Of a stretch of DNA of 64,000 nucleotides, positions 48,601 through 63,600 are shown in pieces. Within the stretch, counting starts at the first letter, position 1, and each line of letters opens with the position of its first letter. The position numbers were made by a program. The stretch comes from Pecten maximus (Eukaryota): NCBI RefSeq assembly GCF_902652985.1, contig NC_047023.1, forward strand, positions 7,192,001 through 7,256,000, in the 5' to 3' direction.

Positions 48601-51600
48601 TCTATGGAATATCAAGCAGACATTTTAATATTATTGTAGATAAACTCTTCGGGATAACGCGTTAATCTGCTCAGATTTACAGTAACTAAATTTAAACTGA
48701 AAGATGCTAATATATTTTGTGTATTTTGTATAATCCTTTGAGATTGCAGGTGATAGTCACTGCTGGTAGACTTTTGTCCCCGGGGTTTACACTAACCCGC
48801 ATGCCATCTGGAAATACCTTTGAATACTAGCACGGTTCAGAATATACAGCCATGTGTTTGACGTTCAATTAAGATCGAATTCGGCGACTATTTCCTCTCT
48901 CTAACTAGATATTGGTGTTTTTGTCGACCTATTTAAGTTCTCTGTGTCGCCTTCTATGTATCACCAATTTAAGCCCTGAAGATTGCATACGAGTCCCTAG
49001 AAGGACGAAACAGCTGTATAATACAGTTAAATTCTTTTAAGCCCTTCTGCATCTAACTCTAGATTTAAATCTACATAATACCAGGATTGTAGATATACAA
49101 GTCGGTGAAAACCATGGGAATGTTTCGTGGTCGATATCATATCTCATTTGGAAATAGTGTATTCCCTTGTGCGATATGAAATCATGCGTATCCGATGATA
49201 GAGGATATGCCTGGTGGTTTCCTTGTCACCACCATCACTCTCATTTTAAGGATGTCATTTTGACCTATAGATTGGTACGGCGTCGTCAAAAAAAACATCT
49301 TGGCCCAATTGTTCAAAAGGTGATTAGCTTAATCACTTGATTAGTGAAAATTTCACTTCTCATTTGTTGAAAAACCTGAGTGTATCGTTTTAAAATTATG
49401 CCAGTTGGAACAGAACTAAGAATTACAGAATTTCATAAAGTTTTGTCAAGTAAGTTCTGCCAGAAGTTATTATACCGGGATTGAAAAAAAATGTTGTTAA
49501 AATGTGATTAGCCTAATCATCTTTTGAAAATCTGGGTCCTGGTTTTATTCTCATGAAATCCTTTTCCATAGCTATATATAGATCACCATTCAAATTGATA
49601 GTTTTCCGTATGTAGTGTGCCCTTTTTCAATAAGACAATTAAACCTTCTTGCAGATCAACTTACCAATCCAAAAACCAGTTCGTGAATATCAAAGCGAAA
49701 TAAGAATACATGCTAGTTTCACAGTTCTTTTATCAAAATAAGCATTTGACAGCTTTACAAAAGAACCACAAACAACAGCTTGAAGTCGATTCATATTTAA
49801 CATAAAAGTTGATGATATGAGTAAATATCACATAATGCATAACTTATATCACCGGTTCTCACGACATTTTAGTTGATGTTTTTTTTTTGTAATATTACAT
49901 ACATTATACGTTAATGTGTCATTGATATCAATCGTAAATTCTTCAAGATCCGGTAACACTTTCCTTTATGGTTTTTTTTTTTCTTATTTTGTATCTTCCG
50001 TTGTCTTCTGTTTTTTATGACCCGCATGACCCAAGTATATGACTCCTAGTGTGTTTTGATAACACAGCCCGAAATGTCTCCAGTTTATAACTTCGTCTGG
50101 TGTGTTTTTATAAAACAACCCGAAATGTCCCCAGTATTTGACTCATTCTGTTGTGTTTTGATAACACGACCCGAAATGTCCCCAGTATGTAACTCCTTCT
50201 GGTGTGTTCTGATAACACAACCCGAAATGTCCCAAGTATATGACTTCGGCTGGTGTGTTTTTATAACACGAGCCGAAATGTCCTAGTATATGACTTCTTC
50301 TGGATGACCCGACATGACCCCAGTATATAATTCCATTCAGTAGTAAGTATAGTTCGTCTCCGGTAGTCTGGTCCGGATACTGCTGAACCGTGTCGGGTTG
50401 GTTCCGGATTTGTCCTCCCAGATCTCCGATGATCGTCGACTCCTATCGTAACCCGAATTAGAATATCCCCTCTTGTTATTGTTAATACACAACACACAGC
50501 CGAGGATCCCGAGTACCAGTAAGGTCAGAATGACCAGCCACACGATAAAACCTATTATGGTGTTTCCACTGACCAGTCCGGAGCTGTATTGACACTCATT
50601 CTGCCTCTGTGACACCGCTACAAGACAAAACAACACAAGTTACTTATTACATAATACTCAATAAACACTGACCTCCATAAGTTCATAGTGACTTTATCTG
50701 GCAACGTCAAATACATCCAACACCATATCTGACGAGTTTACAGAAATAGAAATACTTGTATTAAGTTATTTTGTTAGATTTGATTTTTGATTAGACAACT
50801 TGACCTTCACCTTGACCTCTACACCACGACCGTAACATCTGGTCTGTTGCCGCCTTGTTTAATTCTGAACCACTTTGATTCATCATGTCAAGACAAAATG
50901 TAAAACGATTCAAAATGTGACCTTGACCTTTAGTCAGCTGACCATCTGTTTAATTCTGACCAACTTTGCGTTATATTGTCATATCAAATGTTCATGGGAT
51001 GTTCAGTAGAAAGATACCAAATATGATCTTGATTTCTGACCCATTGACTTTGACATAAACACACCAGTGAAATTTGAAAAAAAAAATCTGCCATGTACTT
51101 CTCAGGAAATAATATCAAAAACTTCAACTGTCTAAATCCTAGATGGTCACCTGTCGGCCATTTTGTTTCTAGATCAGACTCAAAATCAAAATGACTCGAC
51201 CAGGGATCAAAGAGGAATCTACTAGTGAAGTCTGAGAAATATCATATCCGCATTTCACAAGAAATTGCGATCGAAAACATTAATTATCATAATCGGTCAG
51301 ACATCTTTCCGGATCAGACTCACAATCAAATGTGCACAATTAGGGACCAAAGGGAACCCAAATATGTCCAGTGCTTCTCGGGAAATAGCGACAGCAAGGA
51401 TTGTTTGTGGACGGACGGAGGGACAGACGAAGGACGACAGACGGACAGATGGACGAACGGACCACGGACGAAGAACGATTTGAACAGCCCACCATCTGAG
51501 GATTATGGCTAATAAAGATAAACTTTTGTTTTCAAATGATTAAAGGGTTATAACGTGTAATGGAGTAGGTATCCGTGTGTAGATTATACGTACCTCCAGT

Positions 51601-60600: not shown

Positions 60601-63600
60601 ATTCGAATTGGTGATATCACCTATTCGTTTCATTAAGTGATATCATCTATTCATTTCATTAAGTGATATCATCTATTCGAATGAGTGATATCACCTATTC
60701 AAATGAAACGAATAGGTGATATCACTTTAAAAAGTTCTTAAGTGATATCACCAAATGGGAATAATATCTCATTTTTGCAGTAGTCTAAGGGAGGTAACTC
60801 TCAATTGTTGTAGGTTGGCGTCAGAACAAATGTTGAAAGAAATACTGCTAAATTACAGGATGACATGTCAGTGACATTCTAAACCCACCATATTGATCTG
60901 ATTCTGTACCTAGACCACTCACAATCATTGAAGTATTCCTTACAATAGTTTAGAATTTACTGATTATATAAAGGGCAAAGCTTAAGGAGTGTTCATTTAA
61001 AAATGGCTTAGTTGAAACCGTTTCATTTCTAACCTTGTTTACATCGTTTATTCCAATTATCACGATTTCCGTGAGTAAATGTAGAATAAAGAAGAAAAAA
61101 ATCGCACCACGCATTTTCAAAAGATGCAGGTTCATTGAAATCTATGGAAAATGTCATGGTCGACATGGTGATCCCAGTGGGAAGGTTTCTATCGCGGTAA
61201 TTGCTTCTTTATCGGACTTGGTTCCGTAGTCACTACCCTTGTCCTTGATTTCCTCGAGCATTAACAATTCTAGATTTGACAAAAAAAATAGATTTCTATT
61301 CTCTAATTGGCTCACCACGAATTCGTTTGATGAACGATGAGCATTGAAGGATACTTACCTGTAGTAGGAGTAGTTAACTGGGAATTCCTGAAGCAGAATG
61401 GCACATGTGGGAATCACAAGCCCTGTATTGTGTTCGTGCCTCTACCAATATATGCACATTACCCAAGTTATATGTGATTAAATGCATCTCAACTGCCTTA
61501 CTCCGACGCAAAGCGGCTCTCCAAATTTCGATTTCCAACTCCTCCGACACACAGTGGAATTCTTTGTGTGAATTATCTCGCGGAAATCGTTACAGCCCAC
61601 CTAACAAGAAATCAACAGCCATCGAGGAAGGCTTTACTGTCCTTTAGATAATGTCATATTTTACCTGTGGACCAATAAGGCCCGTTGTCCCCCACAACGC
61701 CTTTCTGACCTCTGGATCCCTGTAGTCCTCTCTCGCCTTTCAATCCGGTCTGGCCCTGCTCCCCGATAAATCCACTCAGATCATCTTCTGCATAAAATGT
61801 GACCATAGAGTGACAGAGAAGTTTCTTTTTAATGAAAACAATTGAATATAATATCGACAGCCGTCTCTCTGTACTACTTACCTACACAAGAGTATCCGTT
61901 ACTCTGAAGAGTAAATCCTTGTCGACAGGAACAAACGAAACTTGTACTTGTGTCAGTACAGTTATGGCTGCAGTAGTTATTTCCTGTATTCGCACAAGTG
62001 CGTTGAATTGGTACTGAAAATGAAACCAACATTAGGAATTGATGTTTTACATTATAAACGAGATAATACAAGTAAAAACAAGAATCCTACGCAAGTTGGA
62101 TCATTACGAAGAAATAGACATATTTTTCACTTCAAGAAATAATGTTAAAAGTAACCAAGACCACACTCACTTAAATATACTCGAAATTCAGCAATACAGA
62201 GCACATACTTTTGATAAATGAGCACGTCAAGAAGTTTGAACTTAATTGGCCCAAGAGAACTGCAGTTATTGCATGGAAACAAATTCTATCTATAGTAACA
62301 GTGACCTTAACCTTTGGACTAGAAAAAAAAACGATCCCATGCAAGCGCTTGTAAGGAAAAACTGTATAAAAATTGAGTTTGATGGCCCCAAAGGAACTTG
62401 CGTTATCACAAGAAACAAATTTTGTATTTTTAGTAACAGTGACCTTGAACTTTGATCTGTGGACCTGAAAAGCAATCCTAAGCGAGCACTTTTAGTAAGA
62501 AAGATCTGCGTGCAGTTTGGTCGGCCCAAGGTTAGTTGGGTTATCGCACGGACCGCGGCCGACGCCGACAGAGTGATACCTATATGTCGCCTACTTTTTG
62601 CAGTCGACAGAATGAGGTCTCGTTATGGAGTTTTGTGGAGAAAATTATATATTTCTAAACGGCGATGTGCTGAACGAATTATACTAATATCTCAAATATG
62701 TTGAAGTGTTGTTGTCTGGTATCGCAAATAAAATCTAATAACATGATTATATAAAGCAAAGTAAACCTGGCAAGCTGCATCATCACCAACAAAATAACTT
62801 CGGATGGTATGTGTCAGGGGGTGACATTACGTCCAGTTATGTTAGCCAAAAATCTTCGTCAGTATTACACAGATAATTCCATATGTATAATTGAATTTCT
62901 AATATTTTTGCAATAAATTGCATTCATTTAATATTGCAATATAGACAGTCCTAAATTCGACCAAAGCCAGTTGTTGGACTTCAAGTTTATCATTTAAGTA
63001 GAAGTTATAAAATTGGGTCAGGTCCGTCCAAAATTCTAAAACATTTCAGAATTTTAGATTTTTGACCACCCAAAATATGTTGATAGTTATTTTTTTAGGT
63101 TTTTGATTAAAACTAAATGAAATATCAAATATCCACAATCGTTTTGATTTTTTAATTATTTGGATTTTTGGATGTTCAGACCGTTGCAGTTCAAATTTCC
63201 AAAATCTCACAACAATCGCGTTGATCTGAAGCACCTGAGTGACCATGTGATTCGGAAAAGCGAAACCGAAAGTAAAGCATGTGACCCATATTTCACATTA
63301 TCTCGGCATTAGATCCGTACGTGGATTTTGTTAGTTTATGATAGAATAATGAAAATAAAGTTGTTCAGATGTGGCCAAGATGTTCTCCAGATGAGAGACA
63401 GACCCCCAAATGAAAGTCAGCCTCTTTAACAATTAAGGGACATTTTGCCTCTTACAGAACACGACATTTTTAGATATCTTTTAATTAAAAATTACATTTT
63501 CCCTTGAAAAACCAAATGCAAGCAATGATAGGAACTTGGTTTAAAACGTTCTGTTTGTCAGATATACACTGCACAATATGTCATAATATGCAGTAAAATA

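What the first reader, a model, noticed from the sequence alone, without database searches (positions are those of the whole stretch)
50337..62013. Type I membrane protein combining a collagen helix with EGF domains (EGF-COL-EGFx3-TM-tail)
Seen: eight exons with GT-AG boundaries (one junction is phase-inconsistent) give EGF, about 59 Pro-poor Gly-X-Y triplets, cbEGF, EGF, an EGF-like module with five Cys, a C-terminal TM helix and a ~50-aa tail with several Tyr. Established: vertebrate membrane collagens (XIII, XVII, XXIII, XXV, EDA, MARCO/SR-A) are type II with an N-terminal TM, and CCBE1 (EGF + collagen) is secreted. Inference: this may be a lineage-specific trimeric receptor or adhesion molecule. 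The Cys in NECQY of the last exon may complete the five-Cys module.
Basis: partly seen in the sequence, partly recalled or inferred. Interest (0 to 1): 0.65.

Follow-up and report, generated by a model that had tools for sequence, protein, structure and literature searches.

The report
Membrane-anchored collagen with EGF modules
The window holds the last eight exons of an invertebrate-type gene for a collagen rod flanked by EGF modules and ending in a membrane anchor, an unusual orientation for a membrane collagen; its start lies outside the window and one exon junction does not fit as assembled.

Summary
On the minus strand, eight collinear exons (62013 down to 50337) have AG/GT borders and encode EGF, 59 Pro-poor Gly-X-Y triplets in three exons, cbEGF, EGF, a degenerate EGF, a 25-residue TM helix and a 48-residue basic, Tyr/Ser-rich tail. 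Nothing similar occurs in the other ~52 kb. The odd junction (B/C) has two readings. Either a weaker AG 19 nt downstream is used, which makes all exons phase 1-1. Or, as I favour, one base too many sits in a G5 run (61689-61693); without it the helix runs uninterrupted into the strong acceptor. Three copies of the largest collagen exon model as a staggered trimer (score 0.53, best control 0.00), possibly from memory of solved collagens. EGF-plus-collagen proteins are already described in Lingula and as CCBE1. What looks new is the C-terminal (type I) anchor. I rate it a new variant of a known kind, of moderate interest.

The parts
61882..62013 (-). Exon A: EGF module with six Cys, phase 1-1. 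Its acceptor AG implies at least one coding exon further upstream.
   Evidence: borders, TTTCATTTTCAG acceptor, GTAAGT donor. (FXa_inhibition 7.2e-10, cEGF 4.4e-07). (best solved matches are LRP2, LDLR and factor X EGF modules, E about 1e-05).
61665..61787 (-). Exon B: short linker (DDLS), then 11 Gly-X-Y triplets as assembled, followed by W-S-T. It ends in phase 1 at a strong donor (CAG|GTAAAA).
   Evidence: Collagen 2.6e-07..
61689..61693 (-). G5 homopolymer inside exon B, the candidate site of a one-base indel. After it, the +1 frame reads three more Gly-X-Y triplets (61691-61665) and ends in phase 0 exactly at the donor.
57661..57913 (-). Exon C: 28 Gly-X-Y triplets. The strong acceptor at 57913 is phase 0. 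The alternative AG gives an exon start at 57894 (phase 1, 234 nt).
   Evidence: (Collagen 1.7e-18). (pyrimidines at -23..-4: 14 of 20 for 57913, 8 of 20 for 57894). (trimer model).
57334..57510 (-). Exon D: 19 Gly-X-Y triplets starting with a split Gly codon, then F-Q. Phase 1-1.
   Evidence: (Collagen 1.8e-11)..
56147..56263 (-). Exon E: calcium-binding EGF (D-V-D-E-C start, six Cys). Phase 1-1.
   Evidence: (EGF_CA 5.8e-09). (ADGRE5/CD97 2.9e-12, fibrillin 7.1e-11).
55896..56018 (-). Exon F: EGF module with six Cys. Phase 1-1.
   Evidence: (FXa_inhibition 3.5e-11). (LRP4 3.2e-15).
52063..55914 (-). Minisatellite filling most of intron F/G. Its units of 33 and 45 bp each repeat the last 10 nt of exon F plus the first 6 nt of the intron, so each unit is a donor-site copy.
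   Evidence: about 90 copies. (72 exact copies of the 16-nt core, 92 with at most 1 mismatch). (75 extra 19-nt hits of exon F).
51594..51710 (-). Exon G: degenerate cbEGF (D-Q-N-E-C start, five Cys). Cys1-4 align with the other modules. Eight residues, instead of one, separate Cys4 and Cys5. Phase 1-1.
   Evidence: (EGF_CA E 0.012, below cut-off). (alignment A1). (model pLDDT 66.5). (no significant fold match).
50559..50617 (-). Exon H, extracellular start: 19 residues plus the split codon, holding the sixth Cys (N-E-C).
   Evidence: The spacing argument rests.
50484..50558 (-). Exon H, transmembrane helix of 25 residues, with two Cys at its cytoplasmic end.
   Evidence: (hydropathy 3.07; 1 of 243 ORFs reaches it).
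50337..50483 (-). Exon H, cytoplasmic tail of 48 residues (5 Tyr, an R-S-R-R-S-S stretch) and the stop codon at 50337-50339.
   Evidence: No family found: RELT, Mid2 and CYYR1 all below cut-off; best Atlas score 0.87.
49543..50336 (-). Probable 3' UTR. It holds a 51-bp x 5.5 tandem repeat (50026-50303) and the first AATAAA at 49548.

Best explanation
This is the 3' part (about 440 codons, eight exons, minus strand) of a real invertebrate gene for a single-pass membrane glycoprotein. From the distal end to the membrane, the ectodomain carries:
- at least one EGF module;
- a collagenous segment of about 177 residues (59 Gly-X-Y triplets, only 11 Pro);
- a calcium-binding EGF, an EGF and a degenerate EGF whose sixth Cys lies in the last exon.

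A 25-residue helix and a 48-residue basic, Ser/Tyr-rich tail follow.

Inferred mechanism: three chains associate through the Gly-X-Y segment into a rigid triple-helical stalk about 50 nm long (rise per residue recalled). The C-terminal anchor and the membrane-proximal EGF modules hold the three C-termini in register, so the helix can zip from the C-terminal end as in fibrillar collagens. The stalk presents the distal EGF module, and whatever the missing 5' exons encode, away from the cell surface for adhesion or ligand capture. In effect it would be an inverted counterpart of the type II membrane collagens and class A scavenger receptors.

Shown: the exons, phases, domains, hydrophobic segment and charge asymmetry.

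Inferred: that the exons are spliced together, the N-out orientation, the trimer and the function.

For the B/C junction I favour (about 0.55) one extra G in the run at 61689-61693, most simply an assembly homopolymer error. The weaker acceptor at 57894 gets about 0.35.
For: - Eight exons are collinear on one strand, with 8 of 8 AG acceptors and 7 of 7 GTA donors. All borders but one are phase 1.
- Six of the seven extracellular-module exons pass Pfam's curated cut-offs.
- All 6 of 6 collagen or EGF pattern matches in the 64-kb window fall in this locus.
- The TM segment is the most hydrophobic of 243 ORFs and sits behind a strong acceptor with 14 of 20 pyrimidines.
- Basic residues lie on the C-terminal side of the TM.
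- Seven of 8 exons are unique in the window; only the last 19 nt of exon F recur, in the adjoining minisatellite. So these exons are not repeat-derived.
- The +1 frame after the G5 run gives G-T-T, G-L-I, G-P-Q, ending in phase 0 at the donor and continuing in register into the strong phase-0 acceptor.
- Cys5 of exon G and the Cys in exon H are 11 residues apart, as in the other three modules, which have 11-12.
- Trimer model of exon C x 3: score 0.53 (runs 0.53, 0.53, 0.55), best of 3 controls 0.00. The mark was reached by 21 of 30 proteins solved as pairs of one chain and 0 of 23 solved as single chains. On eukaryotes it was 17 of 29, but only 1 of 7 with no older solved relative. The calibration used two copies, not three. 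The runs agree in at least 98% of contacts, partner pLDDT is at least 87, and the contacts cover residues 1-84 with a one- to two-residue stagger.
Against: - No 5' exon or signal peptide lies in the 2 kb upstream. The strict scan gave one ORF with no phase-1 donor. In the relaxed scan, 14 ATG-ORFs were examined and 4 passed, none convincing.
- There is no transcript evidence for any junction.
- As assembled, the strong donor of B and the strong acceptor of C are out of phase. Both other frames of exon D are closed (ORFs 57381-57485 and 57388-57504), so that splice would truncate the protein.
- Exon G is below Pfam's cut-off. Its model is weak (pLDDT 66.5) and has no significant fold match (0 of 224 at E <= 0.001).
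- The tail has no recognised family or motif.
- The trimer pass may reflect the model's memory of solved collagen helices.
- Only 11 Pro in 177 residues makes helix stability uncertain.
- Relatives in other animals could not be searched.
Confidence: 0.5

Rival explanations
1. The gene encodes a secreted matrix protein of the EGF-plus-collagen kind, like the Lingula EGF-domain collagens or CCBE1. The TM exon is then not part of the main transcript: it would be an alternative 3' exon, or an unrelated open frame.
For: - EGF-domain collagens are described as extracellular shell-matrix proteins in Lingula. The passages seen name the same Pfam families: EGF, EGF_CA and FXa_inhibition (PMC4595640; PMC13425148).
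- Without splicing at the exon G donor, the frame ends after 21 more codons (ORF 51532-51735), which would give a secreted form.
- By rough estimate, a 64-kb AT-rich window can hold a few chance ORFs of about 100 codons. This is my own arithmetic, not a tool result.
Against: - Exon H is phase-compatible with exon G and has one of the best acceptors of the gene (14 of 20 pyrimidines, TAG).
- It supplies a Cys at the right spacing for the five-Cys module.
- It carries the most hydrophobic segment of 243 ORFs, followed by a basic stretch.
- An odd number of Cys would remain without it.
Confidence: 0.2
2. The locus is a decaying or non-functional copy. The extra G in exon B is real and shifts the frame, the fourth EGF has lost its canonical Cys pattern, and the exon F donor has been amplified into a minisatellite that offers dozens of cryptic donors.
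For: - The phase conflict between the two strongest splice sites, and the closed alternative frames in exon D.
- Exon G falls below Pfam's cut-off.
- There are 72 exact donor-site copies in intron F/G.
- The surroundings are rich in transposons and tandem repeats.
- No 5' exons were seen.
Against: - Apart from this one base there is no in-frame stop in any of the eight exons.
- All splice dinucleotides are intact.
- The Gly register is perfect over 59 triplets.
- The six-Cys patterns of A, E and F are intact.
- An in-phase alternative acceptor exists at 57894.
- Homopolymer length errors are a common assembly artefact (general knowledge).
Confidence: 0.2
3. The whole pattern is a chance arrangement of open frames or low-complexity sequence, not a gene.
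For: Gly-X-Y-like periodicity can arise from simple repeats, and the window is repeat-rich.
Against: - Pfam E-values go down to 1.7e-18 for the collagen exons and 3.5e-11 for the EGF exons.
- All six pattern matches lie on one strand in one locus and none elsewhere.
- Phases and splice sites are consistent.
- No tandem repeat reported by Tandem Repeats Finder lies within a collagen exon.
Confidence: 0.02

Closest known systems
EGF-domain collagens of the brachiopod Lingula anatina (shell-matrix collagens)
   Same: They combine EGF, EGF_CA or FXa_inhibition modules with collagen triple-helix repeats in one protein. They are described as products of domain shuffling in a lophotrochozoan. Passages seen in PMC4595640 and PMC13425148.
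   Different: They are reported as extracellular shell-matrix proteins, and the word 'transmembrane' does not occur in PMC4595640. The domain order and the presence of a C-terminal anchor in those proteins could not be checked: supplements are closed and no sequences were fetched. The organism of this window is unknown.
[quoted passage not shown]
   Same: It has EGF/cbEGF modules and short collagen-like segments in one extracellular polypeptide.
   Different: CCBE1 is secreted, with EGF modules N-terminal and the collagen-like domain C-terminal. I saw only the search-listing abstracts of PMC5501841 and PMC8864227. Here the collagen lies between EGF modules, is about 177 residues long, and is followed by a TM helix and tail. 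Orthology was not testable.
Type II membrane collagens (MACITs XIII/XXIII/XXV, collagen XVII) and class A scavenger receptors (SR-A, MARCO)
   Same: They are cell-surface proteins with a collagenous, trimeric ectodomain. SR-A forms homotrimers at the cell surface (passage in PMC4493455).
   Different: They have an N-terminal cytosolic domain and a signal anchor before the collagen (PMC4678570; PMC4493455). Here the TM is C-terminal. MACIT helices are interrupted, whereas this one has none or one imperfection. MACITs were not found in Mollusca or Annelida (PMC4678570). They have no EGF modules.
EGF-rich type I receptors (class F scavenger receptors SREC, MEGF10/Draper/CED-1), recalled from knowledge
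   Same: They share a type I layout with EGF modules next to the membrane and a cytoplasmic tail with Tyr.
   Different: They have no collagen segment. Their tails are long and carry NPxY and YxxL motifs (recalled). The 48-residue tail here has neither.
Streptococcal collagen-like proteins Scl1/Scl2, recalled from knowledge
   Same: They have a Pro-poor Gly-X-Y rod held at the cell surface by its C-terminal end, with a distal globular part. The nearest Atlas clusters to exon C are bacterial or viral collagen-repeat proteins.
   Different: They are bacterial, anchored to the cell wall by a sorting signal, and have no EGF modules and no introns. The resemblance is one of layout only.

Membership tests
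Collagen triple-helix repeat proteins (PF01391) | Runs of Gly-X-Y scoring above the curated cut-off | tested here: met
   Exons B, C and D score 30.7, 66.5 and 44.1 bits against a cut-off of 27.2. Gly occupies every third position in all pieces.
Collagen triple-helix repeat proteins (PF01391) | Three chains form a staggered triple helix | tested here: inconclusive
   The model of 3 copies of exon C scored 0.53 against a best control of 0.00. The mark was reached by 21 of 30 solved one-chain pairs and 0 of 23 single chains. The pass may come from memory of solved collagens, and there is no physical measurement.
EGF / calcium-binding EGF modules | Six-Cys pattern and a Pfam score above cut-off | tested here: met
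   Exon A: FXa_inhibition 39.3 vs 33.4. Exon E: EGF_CA 36.5 vs 27. Exon F: FXa_inhibition 43.5 vs 33.4. Solved EGF modules are the best PDB matches.
EGF / calcium-binding EGF modules (fourth module, exon G) | Six-Cys pattern and a Pfam score above cut-off | tested here: not met
   EGF_CA scores 16.3 against 27, and only profile positions 3-29 match. Exon G has five Cys, with eight residues between Cys4 and Cys5. A sixth Cys lies 11 residues on, in exon H. Fold search gave 0 of 224 matches at E <= 0.001.
Type I (N-out, C-in) single-pass membrane proteins | C-terminal TM helix with basic residues on the cytoplasmic side | tested here: met
   A 25-residue segment has hydropathy 3.07. There are 5 Lys/Arg in the first 17 residues after it and 1 in the 19 before it.
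Type I (N-out, C-in) single-pass membrane proteins | Cleavable N-terminal signal peptide | not testable with these tools
   The 5' end is not in the window. There is no convincing first exon in 62014-64000. The in-frame ATG at 62032 leaves only 7 residues before exon A.
Type II membrane collagens (MACITs, collagen XVII) and class A scavenger receptors | N-terminal cytosolic domain and signal-anchor TM preceding the collagenous ectodomain | tested here: not met
   The only TM segment lies in the last exon, downstream of all collagen and EGF exons. The family definition comes from PMC4678570 and PMC4493455.
CCBE1 | Secreted, with EGF modules N-terminal, collagen-like domain C-terminal, and no TM | tested here: not met
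   Here the collagen is followed by three EGF-type modules, a TM and a tail. The CCBE1 layout comes from abstracts in the listing. Orthology by sequence was not testable.
Lingula-type EGF-domain collagens | EGF, EGF_CA or FXa_inhibition module(s) plus collagen repeats in one protein | tested here: met
   if the exons are spliced as modelled. The definition comes from PMC4595640 (Fig. 6 legend and text).
Lingula-type EGF-domain collagens | Sequence relatedness, mantle expression or presence in the shell proteome | not testable with these tools
EGF-rich type I phagocytic receptors (SREC/MEGF10/Draper) | Cytoplasmic NPxY and/or YxxL motifs (motif definitions recalled) | tested here: not met
   In the tail read, the Tyr contexts are Y-S-N-S, Y-D-R-S and Y-T-Y-Y. 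The only N-P is followed by T-R-F.

The most novel reading that the evidence does not exclude
This would be the first described animal membrane collagen with type I orientation. It would be a homotrimeric surface receptor with an uninterrupted, Pro-poor triple helix of 59 triplets (about 50 nm) set between EGF modules. The helix would be held in register, and its folding nucleated, from the membrane-anchored C-terminal end, the reverse of every characterised collagenous transmembrane protein.
Probability: 0.3. Interest if true: 0.6.

Novelty: new variant of a known kind. Interest (0 to 1): 0.4.

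Why it matters
Every collagenous transmembrane protein described in the two papers whose passages I read on this (PMC4678570; class A scavenger receptors in PMC4493455) is type II. Their folding is thought to start at the membrane-proximal N-terminal end. A C-terminally anchored collagen would show that the triple helix has also been recruited to the cell surface in the other orientation. In that orientation, membrane anchoring could act as the C-terminal nucleator that propeptides provide in fibrillar collagens.

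It would also add a membrane-bound branch to the EGF-plus-collagen proteins so far discussed as matrix or shell components in lophotrochozoans. In practice, the locus warns that a single homopolymer base can break a gene model. It also shows an unusual case of an exon/intron border amplified into a minisatellite.

Tried and rejected
- Fold test of the five-Cys module: AlphaFold2 on alignment A1 gave pLDDT 66.5. Foldseek against the PDB gave 0 of 224 matches at E <= 0.001. The top four (E 1.4-1.6) are EGF-containing entries, but this is not evidence.
- Atlas search with exon H: best score 0.87, showing generic single-pass membrane clusters and no family.
- Atlas search with exon C, named clusters only: 29 of 30 hits carry PF01391 alone, the top rows are bacterial or viral clusters, and no listed row pairs Collagen with an EGF family. 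This is uninformative about architecture.
- Rfam over the whole window: 0 matches, so no help with the source organism.
- Further collagen exons inside the introns, which could have fixed the phase: a scan of the minus strand from 50337 to 64000 for at least 3 Gly-X-Y triplets found only the three known exons and alternative-frame pieces within them.
- A phase-0 donor inside exon B: only weak GT sites exist, and they would break the Gly register (read). Rejected.
- A first exon in 62014-64000: searches gave nothing convincing. Pfam found nothing in the two longest upstream ORFs.
- Literature: nine searches found no paper describing a type I membrane protein with both collagen and EGF modules. 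The three papers holding at least three of the four phrases are two scavenger-receptor reviews and an unrelated population-genetics paper. The sea-anemone matrisome paper (PMC12549020, passages) had nothing relevant.
- The prokaryote-only genome-contig scan and the phage, plasmid and E. coli collections were not used, because they cannot hold relatives of an animal gene.

Full report
WHAT IS THERE

The finding's coordinates are exact, but the gene lies on the minus strand. Stop-to-stop frames and border inspection give eight exons:

| Exon | First-last base | Length (nt) |
|---|---|---|
| A | 62013-61882 | 132 |
| B | 61787-61665 | 123 |
| C | 57913-57661 | 253 |
| D | 57510-57334 | 177 |
| E | 56263-56147 | 117 |
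| F | 56018-55896 | 123 |
| G | 51710-51594 | 117 |
| H | 50617-50337 | 281, stop included |

- All 8 acceptors end in AG and all 7 donors begin GTA.
- The window contains no N.
- Nothing suggests a human contig.

I searched each exon on its own. Statements about the whole protein therefore rest on the per-exon results and on exon phases.

DOMAINS

| Exon | Pfam result |
|---|---|
| A | FXa_inhibition 7.2e-10, cEGF 4.4e-07 |
| B, C, D | Collagen 2.6e-07, 1.7e-18, 1.8e-11 |
| E | EGF_CA 5.8e-09 |
| F | FXa_inhibition 3.5e-11 |
| G | EGF_CA only 0.012 (16.3 bits against a cut-off of 27) over profile positions 3-29 of 43 |
| H | only sub-threshold matches to single-pass membrane families |

The best solved relatives of the EGF exons are generic. 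Exon A matches LRP2, LDLR and factor X. Exon E matches ADGRE5/CD97 and fibrillin. Exon F matches LRP4.

The collagen pieces hold Gly at every third position and only 11 Pro in about 177 residues, 8 in the X position and 3 in Y.

CHANCE

- A six-frame scan of the whole window for at least 4 Gly-X-Y triplets or a six-Cys EGF pattern returned 6 matches. All are on the minus strand between 55900 and 61996. None lies in the remaining ~52 kb.
- Of 243 stop-free stretches of at least 60 aa, only exon H reaches a 19-residue hydropathy of 3.07.
- Seven of the 8 exons are unique in the window. The last 19 nt of exon F recur 75 times in the adjoining minisatellite.

THE ODD JUNCTION

Seven borders are phase 1. 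Exon B ends in phase 1 at a strong donor. It is the better site, with 14 of 20 pyrimidines at -23..-4 and a 10-nt pyrimidine run. There are two ways out.

(a) An AG 19 nt downstream gives an exon start at 57894.
- This makes exon C 234 nt and all eight exons symmetric 1-1.
- It leaves a Trp where a Gly should be (G-P-Y, W-S-T, G-V-N).
- It uses the poorest tract of the gene, 8 of 20 pyrimidines.

(b) Exon B holds a G5 run at 61689-61693.
- Immediately after the run, the +1 frame reads G-T-T, G-L-I, G-P-Q. It ends in phase 0 exactly at the donor.
- It continues in register into G-Q-T at 57913.
- With one G fewer, the helix would be 12 + 28 + 19 = 59 uninterrupted triplets.

I favour (b), at about 0.55 against 0.35 for (a). 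I cannot tell an assembly homopolymer error from a real frameshift. As assembled, the strong donor joined to the strong acceptor would run into stops in exon D, because both of its other frames are closed. No extra collagen exon lies in the introns.

THE FOURTH EGF MODULE AND THE LAST EXON

- Aligned with A, E and F, exon G keeps Cys1-4. It then has eight residues instead of one before its fifth Cys, and it ends there.
- Exon H supplies a Cys 11 residues later. Modules A, E and F have 11-12 residues between Cys5 and Cys6.
- A structure model of exon G was weak (pLDDT 66.5). It gave no significant fold match.
- Exon H continues with a 25-residue helix ending in two Cys. A 48-residue tail follows, with 5 Lys/Arg in its first 17 residues, an R-S-R-R-S-S stretch and 5 Tyr. 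I found no NPxY or YxxL motif (motif definitions recalled).
- The Atlas found no family for exon H (best score 0.87).

TOPOLOGY AND THE 5' END

Disulfide-rich EGF modules and collagen are extracellular (established knowledge). The TM follows them, with basic residues after it. Both point to N-out, C-in.

Exon A starts in phase 1 behind a good acceptor, so coding sequence must lie upstream. The 2 kb left in the window show no convincing first exon. The in-frame ATG at 62032 leaves only seven residues before exon A. The model is therefore a 3' fragment of about 440 codons. Further N-terminal domains, and the signal peptide, remain unseen.

TRIMER

Three copies of exon C (84 residues) were modelled.
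- The score was 0.53 (runs 0.53, 0.53, 0.55). The best of 3 controls scored 0.00.
- The mark was reached by 21 of 30 proteins solved as pairs of one chain and 0 of 23 solved as single chains. The calibration used microbial proteins and two copies.
- On eukaryotes the mark was reached by 17 of 29, but by only 1 of 7 with no older solved relative.
- The runs agree in at least 98% of contacts, and partner pLDDT is at least 87.
- Contacts run along residues 1-84 with a one- to two-residue stagger, as in a triple helix.
- Collagen helices are solved structures. The pass shows likeness, not proof.

SURROUNDINGS

The rest of the window holds no other cellular gene that I could recognise.
- An intact LINE ORF lies at 44070-47885.
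- A broken LTR-element pol lies at about 2900-4590.
- SINE-like repeats and several tandem arrays are present.
- Rfam found nothing.
- Intron F/G is mostly a 3.8-kb minisatellite. Its unit repeats the exon F/intron border: 72 exact copies of a 16-nt core, and 92 with at most 1 mismatch.

COMPARISON WITH WHAT IS KNOWN

- EGF plus collagen in one protein is not new. [quoted passage not shown] Lingula is also said to have the most proteins with both domains among bilaterians (PMC4595640, passages). A 2026 proteomic study repeats this (PMC13425148, passages). The word 'transmembrane' does not occur in PMC4595640.
- CCBE1 is secreted, with N-terminal EGF modules and a C-terminal collagen-like domain (abstracts in the listing).
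- Membrane collagens (MACITs) and class A scavenger receptors are type II (PMC4678570; PMC4493455). MACITs were not found in Mollusca or Annelida.
- Nine searches of the held library turned up no type I membrane protein that combines collagen and EGF modules. The library holds open-access papers only.

WHAT STAYED UNCHECKED

I could not test for orthologues, conservation of the architecture or lineage restriction.
- Supplements were closed. Supplementary Fig. 27 and Tables 29-30 of PMC4595640 may list comparable proteins.
- No signal-peptide or TM predictor was available beyond hydropathy.
- No expression data exist here.
- The source organism was not determined.

VERDICT

The most likely reading is a C-terminally anchored, trimeric collagen-EGF surface protein (confidence 0.5). 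The rivals are a secreted EGF-collagen (0.2) and a frameshifted, decaying copy (0.2). I rate it a new variant of known kinds and score interest at 0.4.

Noticed in passing
window 52063-55914 (intron F/G, minus strand): A 3.8-kb minisatellite of 33- and 45-bp units. Each unit repeats the last 10 nt of exon F plus the first 6 nt of the intron: 72 exact copies of the 16-nt core, 92 with at most 1 mismatch. The first four extra donor copies keep the exon F frame and phase 1, and the read-through frame stays open for 344 codons. Cryptic-donor use would add in-frame units of 11 or 15 residues, each with one Cys.
   Followed up: partly
window 44070-47885 (+): An uninterrupted 1272-codon ORF of a non-LTR retrotransposon (LINE), apparently intact: Exo_endo_phos 8.1e-12, RVT_1 1.4e-35, zf-RVT 4.1e-06.
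   Followed up: partly
window about 2900-4590 (+): Pol remnants of an LTR-type retroelement, split over several frames: RVT_1 7.2e-06, RT_RNaseH 2.1e-32, Integrase_H2C2 1.1e-04, rve 6.1e-03. It is a broken copy.
   Followed up: partly
window 16386-16661, 17845-18179, 29688-30001, 38128-38346: A SINE-like element of about 250 bp in at least four copies and both orientations. It was recognised from near-identical translated stretches in the ORF list. Rfam gave no tRNA-like or other match.
   Followed up: no
window 39882-43182: Arrays of a 57-nt tandem unit with strong negative GC skew (-0.31 at 40-42 kb). A block at 39882-40277 reappears with identical translation at 41541-41936, which suggests a higher-order duplication.
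   Followed up: no
window 56369-56870, 60077-60704 and 50026-50303: Three more tandem repeats inside the gene: 44 bp x 11.4 at 93% identity in intron D/E, a 22-bp palindrome-containing unit x 27 in intron B/C, and 51 bp x 5.5 directly after the stop codon in the presumed 3' UTR.
   Followed up: no
window 62032 (minus strand): An in-frame ATG six codons upstream of the exon A acceptor would give a start of only seven residues before the exon A sequence. That is too short for a usual signal peptide. It could still serve an unspliced, probably non-secreted form.
   Followed up: partly
exon B (61665-61787), exon C (57661-57913), exon D (57334-57510): Short motifs in the collagen segment are recalled, not tested, as integrin-type sites in other collagens. 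They are G-L-K-G-E-R in exon B (GxxGER pattern) and K-G-D twice (G-Q-K-G-D-T in exon C, G-S-K-G-D-S in exon D). There are also clusters of Lys in the Y position.
   Followed up: no
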